Below are positions 15,169-63,066 of a stretch of DNA of 64,000 bases, one piece after another; within the stretch, counting starts at the first letter, position 1; each line of letters opens with the position of its first letter. The stretch is from contig MGFR01000003.1 in the NCBI GenBank assembly GCA_001791995.1, positions 6,170-70,169 on the forward strand. The letters run 5' to 3'. Under the pieces are notes generated by a model that saw only the letters and a program-made list of their open reading frames with translations, had not been told where the DNA came from and made no database searches. This DNA is from Candidatus Woesebacteria bacterium RBG_13_46_13. GTDB taxonomy: Bacteria > Patescibacteriota > Microgenomatia > UBA8517. The position numbers and the translations under genes were made by a program.

Positions 15169-15198
15169 TTGCGGGAATTTCCCGAATATTGTTATAAT
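15169..15198 (+). promoter_or_regulatory. sigma70-like promoter of the pilus operon (TTGCGG-17-TTATAAT); transcript likely leaderless
   Basis: -35 TTGCGG at 15169-15174, 17-18 nt spacer, -10 TATAAT at 15193-15198. The pilB ATG at 15208 lies about 10 nt after the -10 with no SD. Confidence 0.4.
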
Positions 15199-15207
15199 GA
15201 ACATACC

Positions 15208-16935
15208 ATGCCTGCTGCCCCTATTCTCCCAAATACGGACGGTGCTGTAACCCTGGCGGACATTCTTGCCCAGCAGGGAGCTTTGGATCCCGAAAGAGCC
15301 AAGCAGGTCAAACTAGCGGAAATTCAGTCCGGCAAACCCCAGGAAGAAATTATCACAGGCCAAAAGCTGGTTACCGAAGACGCTTTGGTTAAGGCCAAGG
15401 CGGTTTTTTACAACATTCCCTTTATCGATTTAGGAGCAATTCCCACCTCCCCCGAAGCCCTAAATACGATTTCTCAGGAAGTGGCCGAAAGGTTTAAGGT
15501 CTATCCCGTTTCCATCGACGCTGCAGCCAAACAGTTGATTTTGGCCATGGCCGACCCTTTAAACTTAACCGCCATCGAATTTATCGAGCAGAAAACCGGC
15601 TTAAGGGTCAAGCCCGAGGCGGCCGTTCCTTCCAAGGTCGATGAGTTTATCTCAACCCGCTATTCGACCGAACTGTCCCAGCAGGTAACGGAAGCCTTAA
15701 AGGAAGTCGAGCCGGAAGAGGAAAAGAAATCTGTCGACTTGTCCAAGACCGGCTTTATCCGGGAAGAAAAAGTCTCCGAGATAGTCAGCCACATCTTGGA
15801 TTTTGCCATGCGGGCCAGGGCTTCCGACGTGCACATTGAACCCCAGGAGAAATTAACCAGAGTACGCTATCGAATCGACGGAATTTTGCAGGAGAAGCTC
15901 ACCATCCCGAGTAATTTGCACGACTCTTTGGTTTCAAGAATCAAAATCCTGTCGGGAATTAAAATAGACGAAAAGCGAATTCCCCAGGACGGCAGATTCA
16001 ATTTTAAGGCGGGAGATAATGAAGTGGACTTGAGGGTTTCGACCCTACCCACTTCCTGGGGAGAAAAGGTAGTCATGCGGCTTTTAAAAAAGTCCGGCGG
16101 TGTACCGGAACTTATAGAATTGGGACTAAGAGGAACCTCTCTTAAGAATCTGCAGGATGCGATTTTAAGACCTCACGGAATCGTTATCATCTGCGGCCCG
16201 ACCGGTTCGGGAAAAACCACCACTCTTTATTCCCTAATTTCCAAGATCAGTACCCCCAAGGTCAATATCGTGACACTGGAGGACCCGGTGGAATATAAAA
16301 TTGCCGGGGTCAACCAGGTGCAGATTAACCCGGCGGCGGGTTTGACCTTTGCTTCGGGACTGCGTTCTTTCTTAAGACAGGACCCGAACATTATTTTGGT
16401 GGGAGAAATCCGAGACCGCGAAACCGCCGATCTGGCCATCCAGGCCTCCTTAACCGGCCACTTGGTCTTTTCCACCCTGCACACCAACGATGCCTCGGGG
16501 GCCCTCCCCAGACTATTGGATATGGGGGCGGAACCCTATCTTCTGGCTTCCTCAATGACGGCCATTGTCGCCCAGAGGGTGGTCAGGAAAATTCACGACA
16601 AATGTAAAGTCAGCTATGTCCCCGACCCCAAGATAGTTGAAGACATGAAACAGGTACTGGGACCCTTGTGGCCGGCCGGTAAAGAGACGAAACTGTATAA
16701 AGGTCAGGGTGATGCCGAGTGCGGCGATTCGGGCTATTTGGGCAGGGTGGGAATCTTTGAGGTCTTACCCATCAGCGAGAAGATCTCAAGACTGATTCTG
16801 CAGCGCTCTCCCGCCTCGGATATCGAAAAGCAGGCCAAAGAGGAAGGAATGGTAACATTAAAGCAGGACGGATATTTGAAGGCTCTCGAAGGAGTTACCT
16901 CTATCGAGGAGATTCTCAGGGTTGCCCAGGAATAG
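15208..16935 (+). CDS. pilB: type IV pilus assembly ATPase PilB (GspE family)
   Basis: GspE N-terminal domain, Walker A GPTGSGKTTTLYS, Asp box, His box, and tetra-Cys C...C...C zinc motif. The ORF-track start at 15169 overlaps the promoter, so ATG 15208 is preferred. Confidence 0.85.
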   Translation: MPAAPILPNTDGAVTLADILAQQGALDPERAKQVKLAEIQSGKPQEEIITGQKLVTEDALVKAKAVFYNIPFIDLGAIPTSPEALNTISQEVAERFKVYPVSIDAAAKQLILAMADPLNLTAIEFIEQKTGLRVKPEAAVPSKVDEFISTRYSTELSQQVTEALKEVEPEEEKKSVDLSKTGFIREEKVSEIVSHILDFAMRARASDVHIEPQEKLTRVRYRIDGILQEKLTIPSNLHDSLVSRIKILSGIKIDEKRIPQDGRFNFKAGDNEVDLRVSTLPTSWGEKVVMRLLKKSGGVPELIELGLRGTSLKNLQDAILRPHGIVIICGPTGSGKTTTLYSLISKISTPKVNIVTLEDPVEYKIAGVNQVQINPAAGLTFASGLRSFLRQDPNIILVGEIRDRETADLAIQASLTGHLVFSTLHTNDASGALPRLLDMGAEPYLLASSMTAIVAQRVVRKIHDKCKVSYVPDPKIVEDMKQVLGPLWPAGKETKLYKGQGDAECGDSGYLGRVGIFEVLPISEKISRLILQRSPASDIEKQAKEEGMVTLKQDGYLKALEGVTSIEEILRVAQE

Positions 16936-16938
16936 ATT

Positions 16939-18009
16939 ATGACTATTAAGGATTTATTGCAGCTGACGGTTGAGAAAAACGCTTCCGATTTGCATGTTGT
17001 GGCGGGGATTCCCCCGACCTTAAGAATCGACGGAGAACTTGCCCCCATTGCCAACGAGGCATTTTTGACCCCGGATGCAATCGCCGCTCATCTTAAAGAG
17101 GTCATCTCGGCCGAACAGCTGGAGCGGCTAATGGTCAATAAGGAAATCGATTTTTCCCTGGCCTTTTCGGATAAGGCCCGTTTCCGGGTTAACGCCTATA
17201 CCCAAAAAGGCTCTTTGGCAGCCGCTTTCAGGAGAATCCCCCTGATTATTCCGGAAATAGACAACCTGGGCTTGCCCAAAATACTGCACTCTTTTACCGG
17301 TCTGAGACAGGGCTTTATTCTGGTTACGGGTCCAACCGGTCACGGAAAATCAACCACTCTGGCGGCGATGATTAACGAAATCAATAAAACCCGCGCCTGC
17401 CATGTGGTCACCATCGAGGACCCCATTGAATTTGTCTTTAGAGCGGAAAAGTCGATTATCTCCCAGCGGGAGATGCGCAGCGATACCCACTCCTGGCAGG
17501 TAGCCTTAAGAAGCGTACTCCGGGAAGATCCGGATGTTGTTTTGGTGGGAGAAATGAGGGATTACGAAACAATCGCCGCGGCCCTAACCGTTGCGGAGAC
17601 CGGCCACTTGGTTTTTGCAACCCTACATACCAACTCGGCCGCTCAAACCATCGACAGAATAGTGGACGTCTTTCCCGAGGAGCAGCAATCCCAGGTGCGG
17701 CTGCAGCTTTCCAACGTTATCGAGGCGGTTTTTTCGCAAAGACTTATCCCGGCTCTCGCCGGCGGCAGAGTCGTGGGCTACGAGGTGATGTTGGGTACAA
17801 CCGCCATCAGAACCGCCATCCGGGAAGGTAAGACCCACCAGATAGACTCCATGCTGCAGACTTCACAGGAGGTCGGAATGAATACCATCGAAAACTCCCT
17901 GGCCGCACTTATCAAGGACGGAAAGATCAGCCTGGAGGTGGCCCAAAGTTATTCCTTAAGACCCGAACAGCTGACCAGACTGGTCCGTGTTCCCGAAGGA
18001 ATTAAGTAA
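16939..18009 (+). CDS. pilT: type IV pilus retraction ATPase PilT
   Basis: DLHVVAGIPPTLRIDGEL, Walker A GPTGHGKSTT, 356 aa. Confidence 0.85.
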   Translation: MTIKDLLQLTVEKNASDLHVVAGIPPTLRIDGELAPIANEAFLTPDAIAAHLKEVISAEQLERLMVNKEIDFSLAFSDKARFRVNAYTQKGSLAAAFRRIPLIIPEIDNLGLPKILHSFTGLRQGFILVTGPTGHGKSTTLAAMINEINKTRACHVVTIEDPIEFVFRAEKSIISQREMRSDTHSWQVALRSVLREDPDVVLVGEMRDYETIAAALTVAETGHLVFATLHTNSAAQTIDRIVDVFPEEQQSQVRLQLSNVIEAVFSQRLIPALAGGRVVGYEVMLGTTAIRTAIREGKTHQIDSMLQTSQEVGMNTIENSLAALIKDGKISLEVAQSYSLRPEQLTRLVRVPEGIK

Positions 18010-18012
18010 TGA

Positions 18013-19218
18013 ATGAAAAGATTTACCTACAAGGCAAAAGATAAAGAGGGCAAGGTAGTTACGGGAGAAGTAGAAGCATCTTCGGACTCGGTCGCAGCCA
18101 AACTCGTCAGACAGAAGGGCTTAACCGTGATCTCGATTAAGCCTGCCAGGGAAAATTTGCTCTCCTTTATCAGAAGATTAAGGGAGCGGATAAGCCTGAC
18201 CGACGTGTCAACCTTCACCCGACAGCTGGCCACCATGGTCAATGCCGGTCTGCCCATTACCGAGGCTTTGCTTATTTTGCGTTCCCAAACCAAGGGACCG
18301 ATGCAGAAGGTGGCTGCCCAAATCTTAACCGATGTCGAAGGCGGAGAATCCCTCTCCATTGCCCTATCCCGCCACCCCAAGGTTTTCGGGCCCACCTATA
18401 TCGCCTTGGTTAAATCCGGCGAACTCGGAGGGGTTATCGATGAGGTCTTGGCGAGGCTTGCCGATAACTTGGAGAAACAACAGGAATTTAAAGGTAAGGT
18501 CAAGGGAGCTTTAATCTACCCCGCAATAATTGTTGTCGGCATGTTTGTGGTGGGGATGGTGATGATGATTTTTGTCATTCCCCGCTTAACCTCCCTTTAC
18601 GGGGATTTTAATGCCCAGCTGCCCGCCGCTACCAAACTGTTGATAGGAATTTCCAATATCTTCCTCAAATTCTGGCCGTTTTTGATCGTTTTGCTGGTAG
18701 GCGGTATTTGGGGCTTTACCGCCTTCCGCAGAACGCCTGCCGGAAAAAGGAAAACCGATGAGCTGATCTTTAAACTTCCGATAGTGGGAGAGCTGCAGAA
18801 GGAAGTTCTTTTGGCCGAGCTGACCCGGACGCTTTCTTTAATGGTGGGATCGGGTGTATCTATTCTTGATGCCTTAAACATCTCGGCCGGAGTTGTCGGA
18901 AATGAAGTTGTGGCCAGTGCCTTAAGGGATGCATCCAAGCAGGTGGAAAAGGGTTTCCCCATCGCCTACTCTTTCTCCAAACATCCTGAGGCCTTCCCTT
19001 TTATTCTCTCCCAGATGGTGGCCGTGGGAGAGGAAACCGGAAAGATGGAAGAGGTACTGGGCAAGGTCAGTCACGTCTTTGAAGTGGAGAGCGATCAGAA
19101 AGTCAAAGCTCTAACCTCGGCGGTAGAGCCTTTGGTGATGATAATTTTAGGTCTGGGGGTGGGCTTCTTGGTTATTGCCATCATCTTGCCTATTTATAAC
19201 CTGACCAGCCAGTTTTAA
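18013..19218 (+). CDS. pilC: type IV pilus platform protein PilC (GspF family)
   Basis: Two T2SSF repeats, each with TM helices. N-terminal FTYKAKDKEGKVVTGEVEA motif typical of PilC. Confidence 0.85.
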   Translation: MKRFTYKAKDKEGKVVTGEVEASSDSVAAKLVRQKGLTVISIKPARENLLSFIRRLRERISLTDVSTFTRQLATMVNAGLPITEALLILRSQTKGPMQKVAAQILTDVEGGESLSIALSRHPKVFGPTYIALVKSGELGGVIDEVLARLADNLEKQQEFKGKVKGALIYPAIIVVGMFVVGMVMMIFVIPRLTSLYGDFNAQLPAATKLLIGISNIFLKFWPFLIVLLVGGIWGFTAFRRTPAGKRKTDELIFKLPIVGELQKEVLLAELTRTLSLMVGSGVSILDALNISAGVVGNEVVASALRDASKQVEKGFPIAYSFSKHPEAFPFILSQMVAVGEETGKMEEVLGKVSHVFEVESDQKVKALTSAVEPLVMIILGLGVGFLVIAIILPIYNLTSQF

Positions 19219-19297
19219 TGCCTTGACAGCCAATTGCTTAATAGACGATACTGGATTAGAAAGCGAGAGGGGGTGAAAAGTAATTAATACTGCTCAT

Positions 19298-19888
19298 ATG
19301 ATAAGACAAAAGGGTTTCACCTTGGTTGAACTTCTTATTGTTATTGCACTTTTGGGAGTCTTGGCAGCTGCCGTTTTGGCGGCTATCAATCCTCTCGAGC
19401 AGGCAAATAGGGCCAGAGACACCAGAGTCCGCTCCGATGCCAGCCAACTTTTGGCGGCAACCGACAGATATTTCGTTGCACAGGATAAGTTTCCCTGGGT
19501 AACCAGCGGAGACGTAACCACCAACGACGGTGCTTATGGGTTTATCAGTGCCCAGGACGACGGAGCCGGGATTTGTGCTGCGACCGGTTGTGCCGGTGCG
19601 GCCGACGACGGCTTCCTGATTACCAACAACGAGCTGAAGACGGAATTCAGAAACAGGGATTTTGTCAAAGCAACCGTAGATACGGAGATGCTCTATATCG
19701 GTAAGGCCACGGGAGCATCGTCCTCGGTCTATGCCTGTTGGGTTCCCAAGAGCAAATCGGAAAGGCAAAAATCAACAAAGACGCTTACGCTGGGAAGTAC
19801 CACATTGGGTACAACCACAACCGCGGATTGCGGAACCAGAACATATGCTGATTTGGCGACGTCCTGCGTTGTTTGCTTGCCGCAATAA
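19298..19888 (+). CDS. pilA: type IV major pilin (PilA-like)
   Basis: Class III signal MIRQKG|FTLVELLIVIALLGVLAA with Glu+5. 196 aa with a C-terminal Cys pair. Confidence 0.8.
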   Translation: MIRQKGFTLVELLIVIALLGVLAAAVLAAINPLEQANRARDTRVRSDASQLLAATDRYFVAQDKFPWVTSGDVTTNDGAYGFISAQDDGAGICAATGCAGAADDGFLITNNELKTEFRNRDFVKATVDTEMLYIGKATGASSSVYACWVPKSKSERQKSTKTLTLGSTTLGTTTTADCGTRTYADLATSCVVCLPQ

Positions 19889-19891
19889 TTC

Positions 19892-20674
19892 GTGGTTTTA
19901 ATAATATTTTTGCTGGGACTTGCATTCGGGTCCTTTGTGGGAGTTTTAACTTGGAGACTTCCGAGGGGAAAGCAATTTCTTCTCGGTCGCTCCATTTGTC
20001 CCCACTGTAAACATCAAATTGCCTGGTTTGACAATATTCCGCTTGTTTCTTTCCTGGCCTTAAAGGGAAGATGCAGACACTGTAGGGCCAGAATTTCACG
20101 GCGCTATCCGGCTGTTGAGCTTGCTTTGGGAGTGCTGTTTGTTCTTCTCTACCTTAGACTTTTATCCTGTCCGTCCCCAGAGGCGGTTTGTCTGATAAGA
20201 ACCACTTATGCTTTACCCGGAATACTCTTTTTATTTTTTATCCTGCTTCTTAATCTGGCTATTTTTGTGATCGATATCGAAAAAAGAATAATTCCCGACG
20301 AGCTGGTGTTTGCGGGTTTGGCTAGCTTAAGCATTCTTCTGGTTTTGGGTCCCCAGCATGCGTTCTATCTTCGTTTTTTCTCGGCATTTTTGGCAGCATT
20401 TTTACTGCTTACCTTAAACATTGCCACCAAAGGCAAAGGTATGGGCCTCGGGGACGTCAAATATGCCCTTTTGGGAGGTCTTTTTTTCGGCTGGCCCTTG
20501 ACCCTTGTCTGGCTTCTGACCGCTTTCTTGACAGGGGCTTTGGCCGCAATCATACTGATTTTGACGGGTAAGGCAGGTATGAAGGACAAGATTGCCTTCG
20601 GTCCTTTTATGGCAATCGCCTTAGTAATAGTGATGTTTTTCGGAGAAAGGATTTTAGGACTAATTTGGCTATGA
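19892..20674 (+). CDS. pilD: prepilin peptidase (A24 family)
   Basis: CPHC...CRHC zinc-binding motif. Polytopic, with a GTG start immediately after the pilin stop. Confidence 0.85.
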   Translation: MVLIIFLLGLAFGSFVGVLTWRLPRGKQFLLGRSICPHCKHQIAWFDNIPLVSFLALKGRCRHCRARISRRYPAVELALGVLFVLLYLRLLSCPSPEAVCLIRTTYALPGILFLFFILLLNLAIFVIDIEKRIIPDELVFAGLASLSILLVLGPQHAFYLRFFSAFLAAFLLLTLNIATKGKGMGLGDVKYALLGGLFFGWPLTLVWLLTAFLTGALAAIILILTGKAGMKDKIAFGPFMAIALVIVMFFGERILGLIWL

Positions 20675-20679
20675 GAAAA

Positions 20680-21285
20680 ATGCGTTTAATGCGGGGGTTA
20701 ACCGTTACGGAACTGATGATTGTGGTGGTAATTATTGCGTTCTTGGCTCTTTTGGCATTTTGGGCTGTCAGAACCCAGGTTTATAAAGGCTTCGACGCCC
20801 GACGCAAAGCGGATATCCACAGAATTAAAGTGGCGGTTGAGGAATACGAAAAGGACCACGACTGCTACCCCACCCCGGATTTGGTTGTTTGTAAGCCCCA
20901 GGATACCGGTCTAAGGCCCTACCTGGACAAAATTCCCTGCGACCCGAGAACGAACGGGTCTTATTATTACGACCACGAAAACTCTTCCTGTCCCAAGTGG
21001 TACCGGCTATATACGGCTTTTGAAAACATCAAGGATTCAGACTATATGGGTCCTTTGGGGCCCGGTAATTCCTTCAACTATTTTTCGGGCAGTCCCAACG
21101 CTCCTTATCCCTCAGCTCCACCCTCCAACTTTTACGGCTGCAGAAGCGGAGTCTGCGTTCCCATCCTATGGAACCCCACCCGCCCGGGTGCGGAGTGCGA
21201 CCCGAATTTCGGTAGCTCCTCCTGCTACGGTAAATGTACGGATCCGAATACCGGGGCTCCGATTAACGAATGCACCCAAATATGA
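20680..21285 (+). CDS. pilin-like protein with Cys-rich C-terminal domain
   Basis: Prepilin-type N-terminus MRLMRG|LTVTELMIVVVIIAFLALL with Glu+5. The C-terminal half has 8 Cys. Start ambiguous: in-frame starts at 20665, 20671, 20680 and 20689. Confidence 0.6.
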   Translation: MRLMRGLTVTELMIVVVIIAFLALLAFWAVRTQVYKGFDARRKADIHRIKVAVEEYEKDHDCYPTPDLVVCKPQDTGLRPYLDKIPCDPRTNGSYYYDHENSSCPKWYRLYTAFENIKDSDYMGPLGPGNSFNYFSGSPNAPYPSAPPSNFYGCRSGVCVPILWNPTRPGAECDPNFGSSSCYGKCTDPNTGAPINECTQI

Positions 21286-21899
21286 AGAACTTTTTGACCC
21301 GGAAAGAAATTGTCGGGATTACACTTATCTTAACCTTCATTTTCGCCCTCTCTTCTTATAACTTCAAACTCAGTCTGCGCCGCTCGCGGGATATCCAAAG
21401 AAGAGACGACTTAACCGCCCTCGCCCAGGGTCTGGAGAGCTTTTACGATGACGACGACTTCGGTTTCTATCCCCCGTCCAGTCCGGACGGAAAGATATTG
21501 GCTTGTATTCCCGCCGGGGTTGACCCCGAAACGATCAAAGAGATTGTCGGAGGAAGAGCGGTGAACAAGAAAAAGATTTTTGCCGCTCTCACCGGCTGCG
21601 AGTGGGGCAACTCCGCTTTAGTAGATGCGTCTGACTTGTCCAAGGAACCCTATTTAAGCGCAATTCCCCAAGATGTTAAGGAATCCTCGGGTTATTCCTA
21701 TATCTATTTCTCTACCGGAAAGCATTTTCAGGTTTACGGGGCTTATGAAGGCAAAGGCTTACCCGAATACGACCCTAAGATAGTTGCCAGGGGGATTCTT
21801 TGTGGAAGGCAAATCTGCACTTTCGGTAAAGCCTCCCGCGGAACACCTTTGGACAAATCTTTGGAAGAATTTGAAAGAGAACTTCAAAAAGGTCCGTAA
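21282..21899 (+). CDS. pseudopilin-like protein with non-canonical N-terminus
   Basis: Hydrophobic N-terminus TRKEIVGITLILTFIFAL lacks the G-F-x-x-x-E motif. It retains the pseudopilin RRSRDIQRRDDLTALAQGLESFY block. ATGA overlap with the upstream gene. Confidence 0.5.
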   Translation: MKNFLTRKEIVGITLILTFIFALSSYNFKLSLRRSRDIQRRDDLTALAQGLESFYDDDDFGFYPPSSPDGKILACIPAGVDPETIKEIVGGRAVNKKKIFAALTGCEWGNSALVDASDLSKEPYLSAIPQDVKESSGYSYIYFSTGKHFQVYGAYEGKGLPEYDPKIVARGILCGRQICTFGKASRGTPLDKSLEEFERELQKGP

Positions 21900-21923
21900 T
21901 TTGAGTATAGTGTATATAGGGAT

Positions 21924-22472
21924 ATGCCCACTGCCAAAAGAAAATACCAAAAGACTTCCCCGGGTTTTACCCTGGTAGAGCTTCTGGTGGTCATGGCCAT
22001 CATCTCCATTCTGGCAACCCTTATCGTCGGCGGATTCCGGACGGCCCAGATGCGCGGCCGGGACGCCCAAAGGAAAAGCGATTTAAAACAAATTTCAAAC
22101 GCTTTGGAGCTTTTCTATGCGGATTACGGAAAATACCCTGCGGCCTCGGGAACACAAATCGCAGCCTGTGCATATAACCCCCAAACCGGGGCGGGTGCGG
22201 CCTGTGTCTGGGGAACATCGCAGGTAACGGACGGCAAGACCACCTACTTCAGGGTTATTCCCAAAGATCCGGCAACGGGACAGAATTATGTTTATAAAGT
22301 CTCAAGTGCCAAAAACATGTACCAGCTCTATGCCCACATAGAAAATCCCCAGGATAAAAACTGCATCGACGCAAATTGCGTAAACCCCGTTACGGACACC
22401 TGCGGAGGAACTTTGGTTTGTAACTTTGCCGTAAACAGTACCAATACGACAGCCACGGAGGTTTTGCCATGA
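21924..22472 (+). CDS. pseudopilin (GspG-like), paralogue 1 of 4
   Basis: SPG|FTLVELLVVMAIISILA with Glu+5. RGRDAQRKSDLKQISNALELFYADYGKYP block. Confidence 0.75.
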   Translation: MPTAKRKYQKTSPGFTLVELLVVMAIISILATLIVGGFRTAQMRGRDAQRKSDLKQISNALELFYADYGKYPAASGTQIAACAYNPQTGAGAACVWGTSQVTDGKTTYFRVIPKDPATGQNYVYKVSSAKNMYQLYAHIENPQDKNCIDANCVNPVTDTCGGTLVCNFAVNSTNTTATEVLP

Positions 22473-22963
22473 ACAGACTCAAAACCACAATTTCCAAGGG
22501 CTTTACGCTGGTTGAGCTCTTGGTGACAATTTCCATAATTGCCATAATTTCCACAGTGCTCCTTTCCAACTTCAATGCGGCCAGGGAAAGAGGCAGGGAC
22601 GCTCAAAGAAAAGCGGATTTGAGAAATATTCAGACAGCACTCAGAATTTTTTACAACGACTACGGAGGATTTCCGACAAGCGGAACGGGGGCAAACTTGG
22701 GTAAAATCGTAGCCTGCGGGCAATCCACCACGCCCGGTCCTTTTACCTGTGAGTACGGTTCGGCCTGGAGTGCCGACAATAAGACAATTATGTCCGTCCT
22801 TCCCAAAGATCCCCTTTCTAGCCAGGCCTATCAGTATACCCAGACCGATGCGGACTCGTATACTCTTCAGGCGTGCCTGGAAAACAAAAGCGACGACAAA
22901 GGTATTACCGCCGGAGGAACCACCTGGTGTCCGACCAACTGGATGTATCAGGTCAAACCATGA
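22469..22963 (+). CDS. pseudopilin (GspG-like), paralogue 2 of 4
   Basis: SKG|FTLVELLVTISIIAI. RGRDAQRKADLRNIQTALRIFYNDYGGFP block. ATGA overlap upstream. Confidence 0.75.
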   Translation: MNRLKTTISKGFTLVELLVTISIIAIISTVLLSNFNAARERGRDAQRKADLRNIQTALRIFYNDYGGFPTSGTGANLGKIVACGQSTTPGPFTCEYGSAWSADNKTIMSVLPKDPLSSQAYQYTQTDADSYTLQACLENKSDDKGITAGGTTWCPTNWMYQVKP

Positions 22964-23448
22964 AGAAAATAAAATTAAATAAGGGTTTTACTTTGGTTGA
23001 ACTGTTAGTGGTTATCTCCATCATCGGGATTTTGGCGGCCATTGCTTTGGTATCCTTTACCAGTTCGCAAAAACAGGCCAGGGATACGGCCAGAAAATCC
23101 GATATCAAGCAGTACCAGCTGGCTCTGGAAGGTAACGCCAATAAAACGGGCGGGCTATATCCGCAGAGACCGGATGGGGGCGGCGTAGTTGCCTGGACTA
23201 CCCTTTGTACCGATTTGGCCTTAACCACTTGCCCGCAGGATTTACGCTACACCAAGGATGCAACTTTTGTATATCAATACCAATCCGACGGAACGGTTTC
23301 CGACGGCACCGCGGTGGGAACCAAATATGTACTTTGGGCAAAACTGGAAAATATATCCCCCACCAACTACTGGATAGTCTGTTCCAACGGCAAATCGGGT
23401 CAGTCGGCATCGGGAGTTCCGCCTTCGGGAGGAACGTGTCCTATATGA
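22960..23448 (+). CDS. pseudopilin (GspG-like), paralogue 3 of 4
   Basis: NKG|FTLVELLVVISIIGILAA. ARDTARKSDIKQYQLALEG block. ATG overlaps the upstream TGA (ATGA). The ORF track starts at 22873 in the same frame. Confidence 0.7.
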   Translation: MKKIKLNKGFTLVELLVVISIIGILAAIALVSFTSSQKQARDTARKSDIKQYQLALEGNANKTGGLYPQRPDGGGVVAWTTLCTDLALTTCPQDLRYTKDATFVYQYQSDGTVSDGTAVGTKYVLWAKLENISPTNYWIVCSNGKSGQSASGVPPSGGTCPI

Positions 23449-23882
23449 TCAAAAAAGGTTTTACCCTTATCGAGTTGTTGGTGGTTATTTCCATCGTGGG
23501 GATTTTAATCGGGCTTTCGATCTTCGGCTTGGCGGGGGCCAGGGAGAGCTCGCGCGATGCCAGACGCAAAGCTGACTTGGAGCTTGTCAGGAGCGGGATC
23601 GAAATTTACCGCGCGGACTGCAACACCTACCCGGTTGCAACCTATACGACCAACTGGCCGGCACAGATTGTCGGGGACGGAAGCAGTACCTCGTGTGCGG
23701 TAGCCAATTCTTATCTGAGTAGCCCCGCCGATCCCAACTCCCCGACCAGATATTATCGGTACTCATCAGCCGGTACGACCTATGAGCTCTGTGCCTCCCT
23801 TGAACAAGGCACGGGATCCGTAACCTGTGGGGGTTCAGGCGACTGTGGTCAAGCGTGTAATTACAAAGTAACCAATCCCTGA
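23445..23882 (+). CDS. pseudopilin (GspG-like), paralogue 4 of 4
   Basis: KKG|FTLIELLVVISIVGILIG. SRDARRKADLELVRSGIEIYRADCNTYP block. ATGA overlap. The ORF track starts at 23205 in the same frame. Confidence 0.7.
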   Translation: MIKKGFTLIELLVVISIVGILIGLSIFGLAGARESSRDARRKADLELVRSGIEIYRADCNTYPVATYTTNWPAQIVGDGSSTSCAVANSYLSSPADPNSPTRYYRYSSAGTTYELCASLEQGTGSVTCGGSGDCGQACNYKVTNP

Positions 23883-23888
23883 CATGAG

Positions 23889-24389
23889 ATGCAAAAACAT
23901 TCTGCCTACACAAAACTAAACTCCGCCTATACCTTCATCGAGATTTTGGTTGCCTTAACCATCATCAGCCTGATCTTCGGCGTGGGCTACGTCAGCTTTA
24001 GGGATTTCTCCAGACGTCAGGCCTTAGCCGGTGCCGCCAGAGGAATCGTCGGAGATCTGCGTCTGGCCCAGGAAGAAGCCATCGCGGGCCAGAAACCAGC
24101 GGATATTTTTTGCAACCCGCCGGCAATCCTTAACGGATATAACTTTCGTGTGGTAAATGCCCAGAATTATGTGGTGGAAGCCAACTGCTCGGGAGGCAAT
24201 GTTCAGGTAAAAAGCGTAACCATCGCTTCCGATATTTCGATGTCCATTCCGTCTCCCAACCCCATTACTTTCAAGATTTTGGCCCAGGGAACCAATATTA
24301 ATGCCCCGTCCGCTACTCTGACACTGACTCAAAAAGGCACCGCGGCCACGCGGCCAATTTCCATCAGCCAAGCGGGAGAAATAAAATAG
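23889..24389 (+). CDS. minor pilin, GspH/FimT-like
   Basis: Prepilin-like N-terminus SAYTFIEILVALTIISLIF, with Ala replacing Gly at -1. RRQALAGAARGIVGDLRLAQEEAI block resembles FimT/GspH. Confidence 0.55.
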   Translation: MQKHSAYTKLNSAYTFIEILVALTIISLIFGVGYVSFRDFSRRQALAGAARGIVGDLRLAQEEAIAGQKPADIFCNPPAILNGYNFRVVNAQNYVVEANCSGGNVQVKSVTIASDISMSIPSPNPITFKILAQGTNINAPSATLTLTQKGTAATRPISISQAGEIK

Positions 24390-24860
24390 ATGACCAAAAA
24401 AATGGAAAAAGGACAAAGCCTGTTCGAAATAGTTTTGGCTCTGGCAATTGCTACCTTAATTGTTGTGGCCTTGGTTGCTCTGGCCTCCTCCGCCATCAGA
24501 AACTCCACCTTTGCCAAAAACAAAAGTTTGGCTACCCGCTATTCCCAGGAGGCAACCGAATGGTTGAGGGGGGAAAGGGACACGGATTGGGACGTCTTCT
24601 ACGCCCGAACGGCAAATCCCCTTTACTGCCTAAAATCTCTTTCCTGGACCGAGGCGACGATCGGTCAGTGTACCTCCGGGCAGGAAATAACGGGCACGGT
24701 TTATAAAAGAGAGATTGGTTTTACCCGCGAGACAGTCGATGTGGGTGGCGTCCCCAAGAACGTAGTCGAGGCGGAAATAAATGTCTATTGGCAGGACGCC
24801 CAGGGGATTCATGAGGTTAAATCCGTAACCAACTTTACCGACTGGAGGGACACAATATGA
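24390..24860 (+). CDS. minor pilin (GspI/PilV-like)
   Basis: KG|QSLFEIVLALAIATLIV with Glu+5. 156 aa. Confidence 0.6.
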   Translation: MTKKMEKGQSLFEIVLALAIATLIVVALVALASSAIRNSTFAKNKSLATRYSQEATEWLRGERDTDWDVFYARTANPLYCLKSLSWTEATIGQCTSGQEITGTVYKREIGFTRETVDVGGVPKNVVEAEINVYWQDAQGIHEVKSVTNFTDWRDTI

Positions 24861-25357
24861 AAAAACAGATATCTGCCCGCGGGGTGAGCTTTATCGAGAT
24901 TTTGGTGGTTATTGCCATTTTTGCAATTTTGGGTGTTTTGGTCGGCAGAATTACCTTGATTACCCTTAGGGGTTCCAATAAAAGCGAGTCTTTGGGAAAG
25001 GTTAGGACCAACCTGGATTATTCGTTGGCCGTAATGGAGCGCCAGTTGAGAAATGCCGAAACCGCATCTCCCTGCAACAACACCGCAGTGACGACCATCA
25101 ATTATACCGATATCGATGGAATCCCAAGTTCCTTCTCCTGTGTCAATATCGGCCCTACGGGCTATATTGCCTCAAGCTCGGCAAGGCTGACCACCGATGA
25201 GATAAAAATAACCGCCTGTTCCTTTACCTGCTCCCCTGCCGCAGGCAGGGTTCCGCCGGCAGTGACGATTTCGCTGGAGGCAGCTGATGCCAAAACAACC
25301 GGAATAGAGGCTGCCAAAGTTACGGCAACCACCAAAATCTTTCTTAGAACTTATTAG
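24857..25357 (+). CDS. minor pilin (GspJ/PilW-like)
   Basis: ARG|VSFIEILVVIAIFAIL with Glu+5. YSLAVMERQLRNA block. ATGA overlap upstream. Confidence 0.6.
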   Translation: MKKQISARGVSFIEILVVIAIFAILGVLVGRITLITLRGSNKSESLGKVRTNLDYSLAVMERQLRNAETASPCNNTAVTTINYTDIDGIPSSFSCVNIGPTGYIASSSARLTTDEIKITACSFTCSPAAGRVPPAVTISLEAADAKTTGIEAAKVTATTKIFLRTY

Positions 25358-25406
25358 CAAGTTTTAAGATTGACCGGGGTATACTTGATTGCTAAACTGA
25401 TAACGT

Positions 25407-26309
25407 ATGAAAAAACTGTCCCTGTGGGAAAATAGCTCCGGCCAGGCACTTCTTCTGGTACTTTTGTCGATGGCGGTTGTTTTGACTATTGTTCTTTCGA
25501 TACTTTCCCGAAGCGTAACCGACGTTGCGGTAACAACCCGGGAAGAGGAGGCCTTACGGGCCTTTTCCGCAGCCGAGGCAGGGGTGGAAAGGGCTTTGAT
25601 AGTAGGCTCGAGTATTGGTAGTACCGAAATAGGAGACGCTTCCTTTACCGCTGATGTTTCGGGTACTGCCCAGGCCGGTATCGAGTTTGCCAACCCGGTC
25701 GGAATCCTTTCCGGGGAATCCCTTATCTTTTGGTTCGTTGCCCATGACGATACGGGAAATTTAATCTGTAATGCCGGCAACCCCTGTTTTACGGGAAGTA
25801 AGTTTAAAATTTGTTGGGGCAAGGAAGGAACCGCTTCTGGTGATGCAACCACTCCTGCGATAGAGGTTTCCACTTATTATGCAACCACCCCGGGAGATTA
25901 CGCGACCGTCCAAATTGTCAGAGACACAGCGGATCCCAATAGTTCCAGACGGGGAACGAACAATTTCTCTGCCAACGATGCGGGAACCTGTACGGCAGGC
26001 GGGGAAAATTTCCAGTTTCAAAAGACCGTGGATTTGGCTCTCTTGGGAGTTCCGGTAGGCGCATACGGCGTGCAAAACGGATTGCAGTTTGCCAAGGTCA
26101 GAATGTTTTACAACACGGGTGTGGGTCACCAGATCGGTATCACTACGAGTTTTCCGGGCAATACATTACTCCCCTCCCAAGGTTTAAGGATCGTTTCAAC
26201 CGGGGTATCAGGAGACTCCAACAGAAAGATAGAAGTCTTTCAGGGCTTCGGGGAACTTCCGCCGATATTCGACTCTGCGGTATTTAGCTCAGGAGGAATC
26301 TCCAAATAA
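25407..26309 (+). CDS. minor pilin PilX/GspK-like
   Basis: SSG|QALLLVLLSMAVVLTIVLSIL followed by ALRAFSAAEAGVERAL, typical of PilX/GspK. No Glu+5, as in the GspK class. Confidence 0.55.
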   Translation: MKKLSLWENSSGQALLLVLLSMAVVLTIVLSILSRSVTDVAVTTREEEALRAFSAAEAGVERALIVGSSIGSTEIGDASFTADVSGTAQAGIEFANPVGILSGESLIFWFVAHDDTGNLICNAGNPCFTGSKFKICWGKEGTASGDATTPAIEVSTYYATTPGDYATVQIVRDTADPNSSRRGTNNFSANDAGTCTAGGENFQFQKTVDLALLGVPVGAYGVQNGLQFAKVRMFYNTGVGHQIGITTSFPGNTLLPSQGLRIVSTGVSGDSNRKIEVFQGFGELPPIFDSAVFSSGGISK

Positions 26310-26310
26310 C

Positions 26311-27321
26311 ATGGTGGGGCTGGACATAGGTTCCAAAACGATAAAAGTAGTTGAGTTGGCCAAAGAGGGCAACTCTTGGAGGCTTAAAGCCTCGGGTGTG
26401 ATCGGTTTTCAGGGAACCAGCCCGGATAAAGCCAAGGACCAAAGCGAACTGGCTGCCCTTGCACAAATAATTAAAAAGCTTTTTAAGGAGGCGAATATTT
26501 CCTCAAAAGAGGTAGCCCTTGCACTTCCCGAATCGCAGGTTTTCTCACGCACCGTGAAGTTCCCGCCCTTAACCGATCAGGAAATAGACTCGGCTGTTAA
26601 ATGGGAAGCCGAACAATATATTCCGATTCCGGTCAATGAGGCAATCATCGAGCATCAGATAATTGAAAGGAGAGACACCGCCTCTCCTCCGGAAGTGGTT
26701 GTTCTTTTGGTGGCGGCGCCCAGGAATCTGGTCGAACCTTATGTCAGAACGGTGCAGATGGCGGGACTCACGGTTGTCGGGGTAGAAACGGAACTAATTG
26801 CTCTGGCCAGATCCATCTCCCCCGCCAACCAAACCGTTCTCTTGGTGGATTTTGGTGCCCGCTCAACCGATATCGCCATTGTCAGGAATAACCAGTTAAG
26901 CTTTACCCGCACTATTCCCACAGCCGGAGAGGCCTTCACCAGAGCTGTTGCCCAGAGCTTGGGAGTGGAGGTTCAGCAGGCCGAAGAGTACAAAAGGGCC
27001 TATGGGCTTTCCCAAAGCCAGTTGGAGGGCAAGGTTAAGGGAGCTTTAGAGCCCATCTTCAGGGTTGTAGTCGATGAGATGAAAAAAGCAATCCATTTTT
27101 ACCAGTCGGAGGAAAAAGGGGAAGCTCCGAAATCGATTATTCTTTCGGGAGGTACGGCGGGCATGCCCGAGGCGCTATCACTTCTGACCAAGATGATGGG
27201 ACTGGAAGTGGTGGTGGGCAATCCTTTTGCCAAGGTTGCGGTTGATGCCCAGGCCGCCAAGAGTTTAGCAGCATTCGCCCCTCTCTACTCGATTGCCGTG
27301 GGGCTCGCGATGAGGGAGTAA
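26311..27321 (+). CDS. pilM: type IV pilus assembly protein PilM (actin-like ATPase)
   Basis: N-terminal VGLDIGSKTIKVVEL and internal DFGARSTDIAIV actin-fold phosphate motifs. 336 aa. Confidence 0.85.
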   Translation: MVGLDIGSKTIKVVELAKEGNSWRLKASGVIGFQGTSPDKAKDQSELAALAQIIKKLFKEANISSKEVALALPESQVFSRTVKFPPLTDQEIDSAVKWEAEQYIPIPVNEAIIEHQIIERRDTASPPEVVVLLVAAPRNLVEPYVRTVQMAGLTVVGVETELIALARSISPANQTVLLVDFGARSTDIAIVRNNQLSFTRTIPTAGEAFTRAVAQSLGVEVQQAEEYKRAYGLSQSQLEGKVKGALEPIFRVVVDEMKKAIHFYQSEEKGEAPKSIILSGGTAGMPEALSLLTKMMGLEVVVGNPFAKVAVDAQAAKSLAAFAPLYSIAVGLAMRE

Positions 27322-27324
27322 GTT

Positions 27325-27855
27325 ATGGCCGCCATTAATCTTCTACCCAAAGATCTGTTGCCGAGCGCGGGGCTAATCAAAACCGCGAAACTTCTCAAAA
27401 ATCTTTTAACCTTGGGCTTTGGCATTTTTACGATAGTCCTTGTCGGTTTGGTTGCTTTTTTTGTCCTAAACTCGATTAGCCTGCGTTCCTCCACCGCCCG
27501 CCAGGAAGAATTGAAAAATTCCATCAAGGCCCTCGAGCAAACGGAGCAGGGACTGGTCTTGGTCAAGGATAGACTTACCAAAGTCAAGGAGGTATTGGCC
27601 AAAGATTCGGGAGCGGAAGAGGTGGATAACCTGGCCAAAGTTTCGTCTTTGACCACAGCCGGTGTGGATTTGACCGAAGCCGTTGTCTTTAAAGAAGAGT
27701 TGGATACGACCTTTAACGTTTCCGATGCCAGCGTTCTGACCAGTTTTATGGCCCAGATAATTGCCTCCGGGGACTACAAGAGAATCGATTTAAACTCCTT
27801 CAGTTTTAATCCCAGCGTGGGTTATCTTATCAGTCTGGCCTTTATCAGCAAATAA
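27325..27855 (+). CDS. pilN: PilN-like bitopic pilus alignment protein
   Basis: Short cytoplasmic INLLPKD motif, which binds PilM. Single TM, coiled coil. Position immediately after pilM. Confidence 0.6.
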   Translation: MAAINLLPKDLLPSAGLIKTAKLLKNLLTLGFGIFTIVLVGLVAFFVLNSISLRSSTARQEELKNSIKALEQTEQGLVLVKDRLTKVKEVLAKDSGAEEVDNLAKVSSLTTAGVDLTEAVVFKEELDTTFNVSDASVLTSFMAQIIASGDYKRIDLNSFSFNPSVGYLISLAFISK

Positions 27856-27856
27856 C

Positions 27857-28552
27857 ATGGCACAAAGCGATTTATCAAAAAAACTACTCTCCCCCAACGT
27901 CAAGGCCTTTATGGGGCCTGTCGGGCTTTTACTGCTTTTGGCAATTTTGAGTGTTTTTGCCTTCCGCTTCGGTTTTGCCAAGATCTCCGAACAAAGGCAG
28001 TCTGTGGCCACGGCCAGACAAAACGAGTCGGTCCTGTCCCAGAAAGAGTCTATCTTAAAGGATGTCCAATCCGGTGTGCCCTCTTACGTCAAGGCGGTTG
28101 CGGCGGCACTCCCTGAGAAAAACCCCAGCCTTTCGATGGTTTCGCAACTGAGAATATTAAGCGGAGAAAAGGGCCTATCTTTGGGAAATATTAAGGTCGG
28201 TTCGGAAATAGCGGCAGGTGGGGCTTCGATTTCCGAGGTCGACGTCACCTTCGGGATAGAAGGTCCGGCCGCAGAAATAGTTTCTTTTTTGGCAGCCGTC
28301 AAGGATCTTGCACCGGTCTCAACCATTGAAAAGGCCAAAATCAACAGATCCTCAATCGGTACCCGGGCCGATATTACCTTAAGAGTCTATAAATCGGAAT
28401 TTCCCCAGAAGTTACCATCGTTAACGGAGCCCGCCAGAGCCTTAACCGATGACGAGAAGACCACTCTCACCAAACTCTCGGCTTTAAGGCTGCCCATATT
28501 TTCGGAGCTGACCCCGCAAGGAGGAGCCGTGAGGGAAAATCCCTTCGAGTAA
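27857..28552 (+). CDS. pilO: PilO-like bitopic pilus alignment protein
   Basis: Single TM followed by a coiled coil and a C-terminal alpha/beta domain. Position after pilN. Confidence 0.5.
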   Translation: MAQSDLSKKLLSPNVKAFMGPVGLLLLLAILSVFAFRFGFAKISEQRQSVATARQNESVLSQKESILKDVQSGVPSYVKAVAAALPEKNPSLSMVSQLRILSGEKGLSLGNIKVGSEIAAGGASISEVDVTFGIEGPAAEIVSFLAAVKDLAPVSTIEKAKINRSSIGTRADITLRVYKSEFPQKLPSLTEPARALTDDEKTTLTKLSALRLPIFSELTPQGGAVRENPFE

Positions 28553-60222: not shown

Positions 60223-60690
60223 TTACCTGGAGACTTGAATTGTGGCGCTGTTCTCCGCGTTACAGGCCTTAACGGTAACTATACTATTTGAATCCGAAAC
60301 TACCGAATAGTAGGTAGTGCTGGCAGAGCCCCCACCGGGATCAACGGGAATAGACTTCAAATACTTGGCCAAGGTCACGGAAAGATCCAAACAGGCAGCG
60401 GCCGCTCCGGTACATTGAGATCCTCCCCCTGAGCCGCAGGTTCCGAGCTGCTTTTCGGTTGAGGTAACGCCGGTTGGAAGGCTTCCGTTATTGTCGATGA
60501 TGTATTCATGAACCGCGGTCAAGACAGAATTGACGTCATTCCACCGACGGGAGTTTCTGGCATCCGCAAATCTTTGTACGGGATTTAGGGCCACGATTAC
60601 GATTGAAGCCAAAATAGCGATGATGGCAATAACCAAGAGTAATTCAATGAGTGTAAAACCGCTTTTGTTAGAAGATGGAGCGTTGGGCAT
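60223..60690 (-). CDS. type IV pilin (second PilA-like paralogue)
   Basis: KSG|FTLIELLLVIAIIAILASI with Glu+5. NPVQRFADARNSRRWNDVNSVLTAVHEY parallels the first pilin (19298..19888). Cys pair. Confidence 0.75.
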   Translation of the reverse strand: MPNAPSSNKSGFTLIELLLVIAIIAILASIVIVALNPVQRFADARNSRRWNDVNSVLTAVHEYIIDNNGSLPTGVTSTEKQLGTCGSGGGSQCTGAAAACLDLSVTLAKYLKSIPVDPGGGSASTTYYSVVSDSNSIVTVKACNAENSATIQVSR

Positions 60691-60735
60691 GTCTTTAATT
60701 ACTACAGCACATAGCCGATTTTAAGTCAAGGCCGC

Positions 60736-61107: not shown

Positions 61108-61108
61108 T

Positions 61109-61633: not shown

Positions 61634-61634
61634 C

Positions 61635-63065: not shown

Positions 63066-63066
63066 G

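What the first reader, a model, noticed from the sequence alone, without database searches (positions are those of the whole stretch)
15169..28552. Complete secretin-less type IV pilus / competence-pilus locus (pilB-pilT-pilC-pilA-pilD, 10 pseudopilins, pilMNO)
All cytoplasmic and inner-membrane components plus an extensive pseudopilin set are encoded colinearly on one strand with many 4-bp ATGA overlaps. No PilQ-like secretin or PilP is present here. This arrangement is typical of monoderm-like or Patescibacteria-type cells. It suggests pili used for DNA uptake or host attachment. The set of ten pilin-like genes is unusually rich in minor pilins.
Basis: partly seen in the sequence, partly recalled or inferred. 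Interest (0 to 1): 0.5.

Follow-up and report, generated by a model that had tools for sequence, protein, structure and literature searches.

The report
Woesebacteria secretin-less type IV pilus operon
This is an intact 18-gene operon for a retractable type IV pilus in a Candidatus Woesebacteria (Patescibacteria/CPR) genome; it is real and complete but is the standard, already published pilus locus of this bacterial group.

Summary
Window 15169-28552 (+) holds 18 colinear, intact genes: pilB, pilT, pilC, a pilA-like prepilin, pilD, six GspG-like pilin paralogues, a GspH/PilV/PilW/PilX-like minor-pilin quartet, and pilM, pilN, pilO. There are six ATGA overlaps and no gap longer than 79 bp. No annotated ORF in the 64-kb window is a secretin, ComEC, ComEA or DprA.

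The window is 99.8% identical to Candidatus Woesebacteria bacterium RBG_19FT_COMBO_47_8. The whole block, including its gyrB-holB and RNase III-nusB-recG flanks, is syntenic in about 57 Woesebacteria/Microgenomates genomes.

It is a T4a-like, monoderm-type retractile pilus and not a ComG competence pseudopilus, because PilT and PilMNO are present. It is the counterpart of "T4P locus one" of the cultivated Saccharibacterium TM7x. Co-localised, PilQ-less CPR pilus loci are already published (PMC6744442, PMC7143001, PMC12206443), so novelty is low.

- A second, truncated type IV filament cluster lies at 60223-64000 (-). It has a PilC2 and five pilins, one of them fused to a 7-bladed beta-propeller.
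- One conserved pilin paralogue (21282-21899) has lost the Gly-1 cleavage site.
- The 11-pilin set is a conserved trait of the clade.

The parts
15169..16935 (+). pilB, extension ATPase. The longest ORF starts at TTG 15169. The likely true start is ATG 15208, which is preceded by TGTTATAAT.
   Evidence: Pfam T2SSE 3e-126 plus MshEN. The best NCBIfam model is type IV-A PilB, 553 bits, below the equivalog cut-off. Walker A GPTGSGKT and GEIRD are present. Sequence read.
16939..18009 (+). pilT, retraction ATPase.
   Evidence: NCBIfam pilT_fam 449 bits against a cut-off of 319. GPTGHGKS, GEMRD and AIRTAIRE motifs are present.
18013..19218 (+). pilC, inner-membrane platform protein.
   Evidence: Pfam T2SSF, two domains, 1e-63. 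NCBIfam GspF and PilC models at 1e-106 and 7e-100, below their equivalog cut-offs.
19298..19888 (+). pilA-like prepilin (MIRQKG|FTLVELL), the candidate major pilin. The 79-bp gap upstream holds a TTGACA-18-GATACT promoter-like site.
   Evidence: Pfam N_methyl 4e-9. Promoter-like site at 19223-19252. Its closest paralogue is the last pilin of the second cluster, 60223-60690 (2e-13). The major-pilin role is inferred, not shown.
19892..20674 (+). pilD, bifunctional prepilin peptidase / N-methyltransferase.
   Evidence: Pfam A24_N_bact 2e-32 plus Peptidase_A24 5e-14. CPHC/CRHC, PDE and GLGD motifs are present.
20671..21285 (+). GspG-like pilin paralogue 1 (MRKMRLMRG|LTVTELM), with 10 Cys.
   Evidence: Class-III signal seen in the sequence. 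BLASTP to 21924 gives 2e-15. The Pfam N_methyl and T2SSG hits are weak. ATGA overlap with pilD.
21282..21899 (+). GspG-like pilin paralogue 2 with a degenerate signal (MKNFLTRKE...) and no Gly-1. It is probably not cleaved by PilD.
   Evidence: BLASTP to 21924 gives 5e-13. Most of the 45 orthologues keep F[ST]KxE, and in the 43 where the position could be read only 8 have Gly at -1. No Pfam hit.
21924..22472 (+). GspG-like pilin paralogue 3 (G|FTLVELL).
   Evidence: Pfam N_methyl 2e-8 plus T2SSG 3e-5.
22469..22963 (+). GspG-like pilin paralogue 4 (G|FTLVELL).
   Evidence: Pfam N_methyl 1e-6. 42% identical to 21924.
22960..23448 (+). GspG-like pilin paralogue 5 (MKKIKLNKG|FTLVELL). The true start is 22960, not the ORF-list start 22873.
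   Evidence: Pfam N_methyl 8e-9. ATGA overlap.
23445..23882 (+). GspG-like pilin paralogue 6 (MIKKG|FTLIELL). The true start is 23445, not 23205.
   Evidence: Pfam N_methyl 2e-6. ATGA overlap.
23889..24389 (+). GspH/FimU-like minor pilin (A|YTFIEIL).
   Evidence: Pfam GspH 5e-6 plus N_methyl. NCBIfam GspH and ComGD hits are weak.
24390..24860 (+). PilV/GspI-like minor pilin (G|QSLFEIV).
   Evidence: Class-III signal. N-terminal similarity to the PilV-named propeller pilin 61635-63065 (7e-6). No family hit above threshold.
24857..25357 (+). PilW/GspJ-like minor pilin (G|VSFIEIL).
   Evidence: Pfam N_methyl 7e-4. The assignment rests on its position in the quartet.
25407..26309 (+). PilX/GspK-like large minor pilin (G|QALLLVL, no E5) with a beta-sandwich/jelly-roll-like head. 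Candidate tip subunit or adhesin.
26311..27321 (+). pilM, actin-like cytoplasmic alignment protein.
   Evidence: Pfam PilM_2 7e-55. NCBIfam pilM 210 bits against a cut-off of 133.
27325..27855 (+). pilN, a bitopic protein with the PilM-binding INLLP N-terminus.
   Evidence: N5, L6 and P8 are invariant in all 20 aligned sequences. N-termini listed. Only a weak co-linear hit to PilN 3jc8, E 0.88. No Pfam or NCBIfam hit.
27857..28552 (+). pilO.
   Evidence: Pfam PilO 5e-4, below the gathering score. The orthologue profile hits M. xanthus PilO 3jc8 at 2e-6.
60223..64000 (-). It holds a PilC2 C-terminus (63512-64000, cut by the window end), a GspH-like pilin (63067-63507), a pilin fused to a 7-bladed LVIVD beta-propeller (61635-63065), a pilin (61109-61633), a PilX-like protein (60736-61179) and a pilA2-like pilin (60223-60690).
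   Evidence: Pfam T2SSF 8e-31, LVIVD 1.5e-23 and N_methyl hits. AF2 pLDDT 92.6, with propeller matches by Foldseek. In relatives L081 and L082 the operon is PAS-histidine kinase, two receiver proteins, PilB2, PilC2, then the pilins.

Best explanation
The locus is the complete gene set for a type IVa-like, retractile pilus of a cell without an outer membrane, in a Candidatus Woesebacteria (Microgenomates, Patescibacteria) genome.

Proposed mechanism:
1. PilD cleaves and N-methylates the nine canonical prepilins.
2. The GspH-, PilV-, PilW- and PilX-like quartet (23889-26309) forms the priming and tip complex. The 300-aa PilX-like subunit carries a jelly-roll-like head that may bind host or surface glycans.
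3. The PilB hexamer, acting through the PilC platform, polymerises the major pilin from the membrane. The most likely major pilin is the product of 19298-19888; the six GspG-like paralogues are minor or alternative subunits.
4. PilM, PilN and PilO form the cytoplasmic-membrane alignment ring.
5. PilT depolymerises the fibre, giving retraction.
6. No secretin is needed because the fibre only has to cross peptidoglycan and a surface layer.

The most likely use is surface or host-cell attachment and twitching, as shown for the homologous T4P-1 of Saccharibacteria. DNA capture for ComEC-dependent uptake is a possible second role.

Shown here: gene identities, intactness, operon-like packing, conservation and taxon. 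Inferred: which pilin is the major one, the tip-complex assignment, the ligand and the biological role.
For: - Family assignments with strong scores for PilB, PilT, PilC, PilD and PilM.
- PilO by orthologue profile to 3jc8, 2e-6. PilN by the invariant INLLP motif and its position.
- Eleven pilin-like genes, nine of them with canonical class-III signals, linked by paralogy.
- The catalytic and nucleotide-binding motifs are intact.
- Gene lengths equal the orthologue medians.
- Gaps are at most 79 bp and there are six ATGA overlaps.
- The same gene order and the same flanks occur in about 57 Woesebacteria/Microgenomates loci.
- The taxon is fixed by a 100% identical PilX-like protein and 99.8% DNA identity to GCA_001792165.1.
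- The PilX-like model has a pilin helix plus a beta-sandwich, matching the description of TM7x PilX1.
- Literature: co-localised CPR T4P genes without PilQ (PMC6744442); a Microgenomates T4P single locus without pilQ (PMC7143001); T4P-driven twitching and host binding in Saccharibacteria (PMC9894109; PMC12206443).
Against: - PilN has no significant family or PDB hit. PilO is below the Pfam gathering score as a single sequence.
- PilB and PilC score below the NCBIfam equivalog cut-offs, and almost equally well against the GspE/GspF models.
- There are no expression data, so the major pilin is unknown.
- Absence of a secretin and presence of ComEC could only be checked in 64 kb, not in the genome.
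- No Woesebacteria pilus has been studied experimentally. The functional inference comes from Saccharibacteria, a different CPR class.
- In 11 related genomes the PilX-PilMNO module is not adjacent to the rest of the operon.
Confidence: 0.9

Rival explanations
1. It is a dedicated competence (ComG-type) pseudopilus whose only role is to bring DNA to ComEC.
For: - The pilins and the GspH-like protein give weak hits to ComGC, ComGD, ComGE and ComGF models, and PilB and PilC hit ComGA and ComGB.
- CPR bacteria cannot make nucleotides, and 86% of CPR genomes encode ComEC (PMC6744442).
- Retractile T4aP do mediate DNA uptake in other bacteria (established knowledge).
Against: - ComGA (259 bits, cut-off 300) and ComGB (126 bits, cut-off 240) score below their cut-offs and far below PilB (553) and GspF/PilC (356/335).
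- ComG systems lack PilT and PilMNO, and both are present here.
- No comEA, comEC or dprA lies in the window.
- In TM7x, T4P-2 mutants keep wild-type competence, while T4P-1 (the homologue of this locus) is essential and drives twitching (PMC12206443).
Confidence: 0.1
2. It is a type II secretion-like pseudopilus that pushes proteins out of the cell and does not build a long surface fibre.
For: - PilB scores almost as well against GspE (545 bits) as against PilB (553 bits), and the best model for PilC is GspF.
- Six pilins are GspG-like (T2SSG hit).
- There are GspH and weak GspK hits.
Against: - No GspD, GspC, GspL or GspM is present in the window.
- A PilT retraction ATPase passing its family cut-off, and PilM/N/O, are present.
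- As far as I know, T2SS is not known in cells without an outer membrane.
- Pili have been imaged on CPR cells (PMC9894109).
Confidence: 0.05
3. One machine builds several filament types. The seven PilA/GspG-like pilins are alternative major subunits that give distinct fibres for different hosts or tasks, not minor pilins of a single pilus.
For: - Seven full-length PilA/GspG-type pilin genes are each kept as 1:1 orthologues across Woesebacteria, so each seems to be individually selected.
- They are ancient paralogues at 27-43% identity.
- From my own knowledge, Thermus thermophilus makes two pilus types with one machinery. TM7x makes two pili (PMC12206443).
Against: - No expression or structural data exist.
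- A second dedicated PilB2/PilC2 system with its own pilins is present, which suggests separate machines for separate fibres.
- Tight translational coupling by ATGA overlaps suggests similar, low stoichiometries, as is typical of minor pilins.
Confidence: 0.2

Closest known systems
T4P locus one (T4P-1, 'thick' pilus) of the Saccharibacterium Nanosynbacter lyticus TM7x, and the T4P cluster of TM7i (PMC12206443, PMC9894109)
   Same: - A single locus encodes pilB, pilT, pilC, pilD, pilM/N/O and the pilins, with no secretin, in a CPR cell.
- The largest minor pilin (PilX1) lacks a canonical PilD signal and has a jelly-roll-like head, as modelled here for 25407-26309.
- A second, PilT-less system with a beta-propeller pilin exists in the same genome, as it does here.
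   Different: - Different CPR class (Microgenomates versus Saccharimonadia).
- There are 11 pilin-like genes in this locus against 5 in TM7x locus one.
- The second system here has no PilMNO of its own in relatives L081 and L082. It is preceded by a histidine kinase and two receiver proteins, not linked to recAX.
- Its propeller is of the LVIVD type and sits on the PilV-position pilin. In TM7x the propeller is RCC1-type and sits on PilX2.
CPR-wide co-localised T4P gene set (Meheust et al. 2019, PMC6744442) and the Microgenomates Ch65 T4P locus (Kadnikov et al. 2020, PMC7143001)
   Same: The components are the same (PilB, PilT, PilC, PilD, PilM, PilN, PilO, pilins). The papers also note co-localisation and the absence of PilQ, which they read as evidence for a non-Gram-negative envelope.
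   Different: Those papers give no gene-by-gene anatomy of the pilin set. The 6+4 pilin organisation, the Gly-1-less paralogue and the second system are not described there, as far as the passages read show.
Type IV pili of Gram-positive bacteria (Clostridium perfringens, Streptococcus sanguinis; reviewed by Melville and Craig 2013, cited in PMC6744442)
   Same: These are T4a-like machines with PilB, PilT, PilC, PilD and PilM/N/O and several pilins, no secretin and no PilP. They are retractile and mediate motility and adhesion. This comparison rests on my own knowledge.
   Different: The lineage is unrelated. The pilin sequences here are CPR-specific and the paralogue set is much larger.
Proteobacterial T4aP (Pseudomonas aeruginosa, Myxococcus xanthus)
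   Same: - PilB, PilT, PilC, PilD and PilMNO are shared. The PilO profile matches M. xanthus PilO and PilN has the INLLP motif.
- There is a FimU/PilV/PilW/PilX-type priming quartet.
   Different: No PilP, PilQ, TsaP or PilY1 is present in the locus or the window. All genes lie in one operon-like block, not in several loci.

Membership tests
Type IVa pilus machinery (monoderm/CPR form) | PilB-type extension ATPase | tested here: met
   T2SSE 3e-126 plus MshEN. The best NCBIfam model is type IV-A PilB, 553 bits, below the strict equivalog cut-off of 676. Walker motifs are intact.
Type IVa pilus machinery (monoderm/CPR form) | PilT-type retraction ATPase | tested here: met
   pilT_fam 449 bits against a cut-off of 319. 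The AIRTAIRE motif is present.
Type IVa pilus machinery (monoderm/CPR form) | PilC/GspF platform protein and PilD prepilin peptidase | tested here: met
   Two T2SSF domains at 1e-63, and A24_N_bact plus Peptidase_A24. The catalytic Asp motifs PDE and GLGD are present.
Type IVa pilus machinery (monoderm/CPR form) | PilM-PilN-PilO alignment subcomplex | tested here: met
   PilM passes the NCBIfam cut-off. The PilO profile hits 3jc8 at 2e-6. PilN is supported only by the invariant INLLP motif, its topology and its position.
Type IVa pilus machinery (monoderm/CPR form) | Prepilins with a short leader, Gly-1, Phe+1 and Glu+5, plus a set of core minor pilins | tested here: met
   Nine canonical signals are present. 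Pfam GspH hit for 23889. Weak PilX_N and GspK hits for 25407.
Canonical diderm T4aP (as in TXSScan-type definitions) | PilQ secretin (with PilP) | tested here: not met
   No Secretin-family hit in any window ORF scanned. The rest of the genome was not testable. The literature reports no PilQ in CPR (PMC6744442).
ComG competence pseudopilus | ComGA/ComGB/ComGC-GG set without PilT or PilMNO | tested here: not met
   The ComGA and ComGB models score below their cut-offs and well below the PilB and PilC models. PilT and PilMNO are present.
Type II secretion system | GspD secretin and GspC/GspL/GspM assembly platform | tested here: not met
   None was found in the window. Only the GspE/F/G/H/K-like similarities common to all type IV filament systems are present.
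Tad/Flp pilus (T4c) | TadA ATPase, TadB/TadC, short Flp pilins, TadV peptidase | tested here: not met
   The TadA-family model gives only 55 bits against a cut-off of 373. The pilins are 145-300 aa with T4a-type leaders.

The most novel reading that the evidence does not exclude
The most novel reading not excluded concerns the enlarged pilin repertoire of Woesebacteria and has three parts.
1. There are 11 pilin-like genes in this operon and 5 more in a second cluster 32 kb away. In relatives that second cluster is preceded by a two-component system. Together they could form a modular host-recognition toolkit, in which alternative PilA/GspG-type subunits and two different tip modules (a jelly-roll PilX-like protein and a 7-bladed LVIVD-propeller pilin) give several functionally distinct fibres.
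2. The conserved Gly-1-less paralogue (21282-21899) may not be a fibre subunit. It could be an uncleaved, membrane-retained pilin-fold component of the machine, a role with no described counterpart.
3. The LVIVD-propeller pilin family is widespread across CPR phyla. It does not appear in the searchable literature together with the word pilin in a CPR context.
Probability: 0.2. Interest if true: 0.55.

Novelty: already known. Interest (0 to 1): 0.2.

Why it matters
Type IV pili are thought to be the main organ by which ultrasmall CPR bacteria find, bind and perhaps feed on their hosts. A correct gene-by-gene map of the Woesebacteria operon is therefore useful for annotation. In the public record most of these proteins are "hypothetical", and pilM is missing from the gene calls returned for that record, where runs of N fall inside it.

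It does not change any concept. Secretin-less, co-localised T4P loci are an established hallmark of CPR genomes.

The side observations are modest leads for work on host specificity: the second cluster, which in relatives follows a two-component system and which includes a propeller pilin; the uncleavable pilin paralogue; and the variable linkage of PilX-PilMNO.

Tried and rejected
1. An exact-sequence look-up of PilM found nothing. This was later explained by runs of N inside pilM and pilT in MGGA01000029.1; it is not a frameshift.
It was redone with alignment A4.
4. The PilN profile against PDB gave only E = 0.88 to PilN. Pfam and NCBIfam gave nothing. PilN is accepted on motif and context only.
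5. Terminator-like sites in the locus are no more frequent than in shuffled sequence (25 against 23.0 +/- 5.8), so no transcript boundaries are claimed. Promoter-like sites are enriched (27 against 12.8), but they are consensus matches only.
6. Antisense ORFs inside the locus (for example 19256-19768 and 25364-25873 on the - strand) were not scanned. I judged them spurious because they lie wholly inside well-supported + strand genes.
7. The T2SS, ComG and Tad readings were rejected; see the membership tests.
8. A genome-wide search for a secretin or ComEC was not possible.

Full report
**1. Observation**

Some ORF-list starts are too far upstream. The likely true starts are 15208 (pilB), 20671, 21282, 22960 and 23445.

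With these starts, the intergenic distances are as follows:
- 79 bp between pilC and pilA
- 24 bp between 21282 and 21924
- 49 bp between 24857 and 25407
- 6 bp or less everywhere else
- six ATGA stop/start overlaps

Every product has the median length of its orthologues in up to 57 related genomes, so nothing is frameshifted or truncated.

**2. Identities of the machinery genes**

Pfam and NCBIfam give the following:
- PilB: T2SSE 3e-126 plus MshEN. The best model is type IV-A PilB at 553 bits, just ahead of GspE at 545.
- PilT: pilT_fam 449 bits against a cut-off of 319.
- PilC: two T2SSF domains.
- PilD: A24_N_bact plus Peptidase_A24.
- PilM: PilM_2 7e-55, and it passes the NCBIfam pilM cut-off.

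The Walker A and B boxes, the PilT AIRxxIRE motif, the two CxxC pairs of PilD and its two catalytic Asp motifs are all present.

PilO is below the Pfam gathering score as a single sequence (5e-4). A profile of 16 orthologues finds the Myxococcus xanthus PilO chain of 3jc8 at 2e-6.

PilN has no family hit, and its profile gives only a co-linear E = 0.88 match to PilN of 3jc8. All 20 aligned sequences begin with the PilM-binding INLLP motif, with N5, L6 and P8 invariant. They have one TM segment and sit between pilM and pilO. I accept PilN on that basis.

**3. The pilins**

A pattern scan of all window ORFs finds nine canonical class-III signals in the locus. One unrelated 518-aa ORF (42838-44394) also matched the pattern. 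Two more genes are pilin-like but non-canonical.

Gene 21282-21899 is a clear paralogue of the T2SSG-positive pilin 21924 (5e-13). Its family keeps F-[ST]-K-x-E, but only 8 of the 43 orthologues where the position could be read have Gly at -1. The window copy reads MKNFLTRKE.

Gene 25407-26309 (300 aa) starts G|QALLLVL without Glu5. It gives weak N-terminal matches to PilX_N and to GspK.

The set therefore falls into three groups:
- a PilA-like gene directly after pilC
- six GspG-like paralogues
- a terminal GspH-, PilV-, PilW- and PilX-like quartet, in the usual order of core minor pilins that prime assembly

**4. Organism and conservation**

PilC relatives in genome contigs are almost all Candidatus Woesebacteria, Microgenomates or "Patescibacteria group" MAGs. 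Several are obviously mislabelled as Gammaproteobacteria. The PilX-like protein is 100% identical to A2V61_01685 of Ca. Woesebacteria bacterium RBG_19FT_COMBO_47_8. The window is 99.8% identical to contig MGGA01000029.1. That record has runs of N inside pilT and pilM. This explains why no PilM is among the gene calls returned for it and why my exact look-up failed.

A tblastn synteny table shows the same order in about 57 loci:

gyrB-holB (-) | pilB-pilT-pilC-pilA-pilD, six pilins, three minor pilins, PilX-like, pilMNO (+) | rpsP-KH-RNase III-nusB-recG (-)

In 21 loci the PilX-like gene and pilMNO follow directly. In 11 loci, including the closed genome CP011214, they are absent from at least 3.7 kb downstream.

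**5. Secretin and competence genes**

All window ORFs of 400 aa or more, and most of those of 110 aa or more, were scanned against Pfam. None is a secretin, PilP, GspC/L/M, ComEC, ComEA or DprA. The neighbours are housekeeping genes: H+-PPase, GyrB, HolB, RNase III, NusB, RecG, TyrRS, PBP1, PheST, IF3 and ThrRS.

This is only 64 kb. [quoted passage not shown] The same is reported for a closed Microgenomates genome (PMC7143001).

**6. A second system in the same window**

On the - strand at 60223-64000 lie:
- the C-terminus of a second PilC (T2SSF 8e-31), cut by the window end
- a GspH-like pilin
- a 476-aa pilin with LVIVD repeats
- a further pilin
- a PilX-like protein
- a PilA-like pilin

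The 476-aa protein models with pLDDT 92.6 as a pilin helix and head plus a 7-bladed propeller. Homologues are widespread in CPR phyla.

In two relatives the complete operon reads as follows: PAS-histidine kinase, two receiver proteins, PilB2 (559 aa), PilC2 (about 346 aa), the pilins, then the same Obg-like GTPase gene that lies a little beyond this cluster in the window. There is no PilT, PilD or PilMNO of its own. That system presumably shares PilD, and perhaps PilT, with the locus under study.

This mirrors the two-pilus arrangement of TM7x, whose T4P-2 has a beta-propeller PilX2 that is needed for efficient host binding.

**7. Mechanism and function**

The parts list is that of a retractile T4a-like pilus in a cell without an outer membrane:
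1. PilD processes the prepilins.
2. The minor-pilin quartet primes assembly and ends up at the tip.
3. PilB, acting through PilC, extends the fibre. PilMNO aligns the machine.
4. PilT retracts the fibre.

The role is inferred from Saccharibacteria, where the pili drive twitching and host attachment (PMC9894109, PMC12206443). T4P-2 there is dispensable for competence, and T4P-1 is essential, so its role in competence is untested. DNA capture therefore remains possible but is unsupported. The ComG, T2SS and Tad alternatives fail their defining features (and the gene content).

**8. Novelty**

Three finer points are new at most in detail: the conserved 1+6+4 pilin organisation, the Gly-1-less paralogue, and the propeller-pilin system that in relatives follows a two-component system. 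All three are unverified experimentally. Overall interest is low.

Noticed in passing
window 60223-64000 (-); relatives L081 6844-12819 and L082 4503-13239: A second type IV filament operon: PilC2 (cut by the window end), a GspH-like pilin, a pilin fused to a 7-bladed LVIVD beta-propeller (476 aa), two more pilin-like genes and a PilA2-like pilin. In relatives it is preceded by a PAS-histidine kinase, two receiver proteins and PilB2, and it has no PilT, PilD or PilMNO of its own. The propeller-pilin family is widespread in CPR.
   Followed up: yes
window 21282-21899 (+): A conserved pilin paralogue whose family keeps F-[ST]-K-x-E but mostly lacks Gly at -1 (8 of 43 orthologues have it). It has charged residues at +3 and +4 and a leader of only 2-3 residues. 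It is probably not cleaved by PilD, and its role is unknown.
   Followed up: partly
L005, L009, L010, L013, L014, L017-L020, L033, L054 (downstream of the 24857 orthologue): In 11 related Woesebacteria genomes the operon stops after the PilW-like gene. The PilX-like gene and pilMNO are absent from at least 3.7 kb downstream. In L010 (closed genome CP011214) unrelated genes follow. Whether the module moved or was lost is unknown.
   Followed up: partly
window 15185-15210: A perfect extended -10 element (TGTTATAAT) ends 9 nt before the ATG at 15208, the probable pilB start. This suggests a leaderless or nearly leaderless pilB transcript. The TTG at 15169 from the ORF list is probably not the start.
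   Followed up: no
window ~2000-8000: A low-GC stretch (38-41% against about 49%) carries an AlwI-family restriction endonuclease (4578-6347, -), an N6/N4 DNA methylase (6356-7141, -), a DUF5655 protein and an unassigned 306-aa ORF. It is probably a horizontally acquired restriction-modification island.
   Followed up: no
window 44397-60222: Thirteen tRNA genes lie within 16 kb, several of them in tandem pairs or runs (for example 57971-58333: Phe, Val, Leu, Leu).
   Followed up: no
L083 257-372, 9293-9422, 9636-9711 (= window 17704-17819, 26740-26869, 27083-27158): The public record MGGA01000029.1 has runs of N inside pilT and pilM, and no pilM is among the gene calls returned for it. The window has these stretches filled and both genes are intact.
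   Followed up: yes
loci L003, L004, L006, L008, L013, L020 and others, and L001: Many GenBank MAG titles for loci that are clearly Woesebacteria-like are labelled "uncultured Gammaproteobacteria", "Alphaproteobacteria" or "Jorgensenbacteria". These loci have the same T4P synteny and 70-87% PilC identity, so the taxonomic labels look wrong.
   Followed up: no
window 48430-49836 (-), 55667-57064 (-), 47063-47401 (-): Two large ORFs (468 and 465 aa) have no significant Pfam family. A Phage_holin_4_2 family membrane protein (1e-29) lies next to an alpha/beta hydrolase.
   Followed up: no
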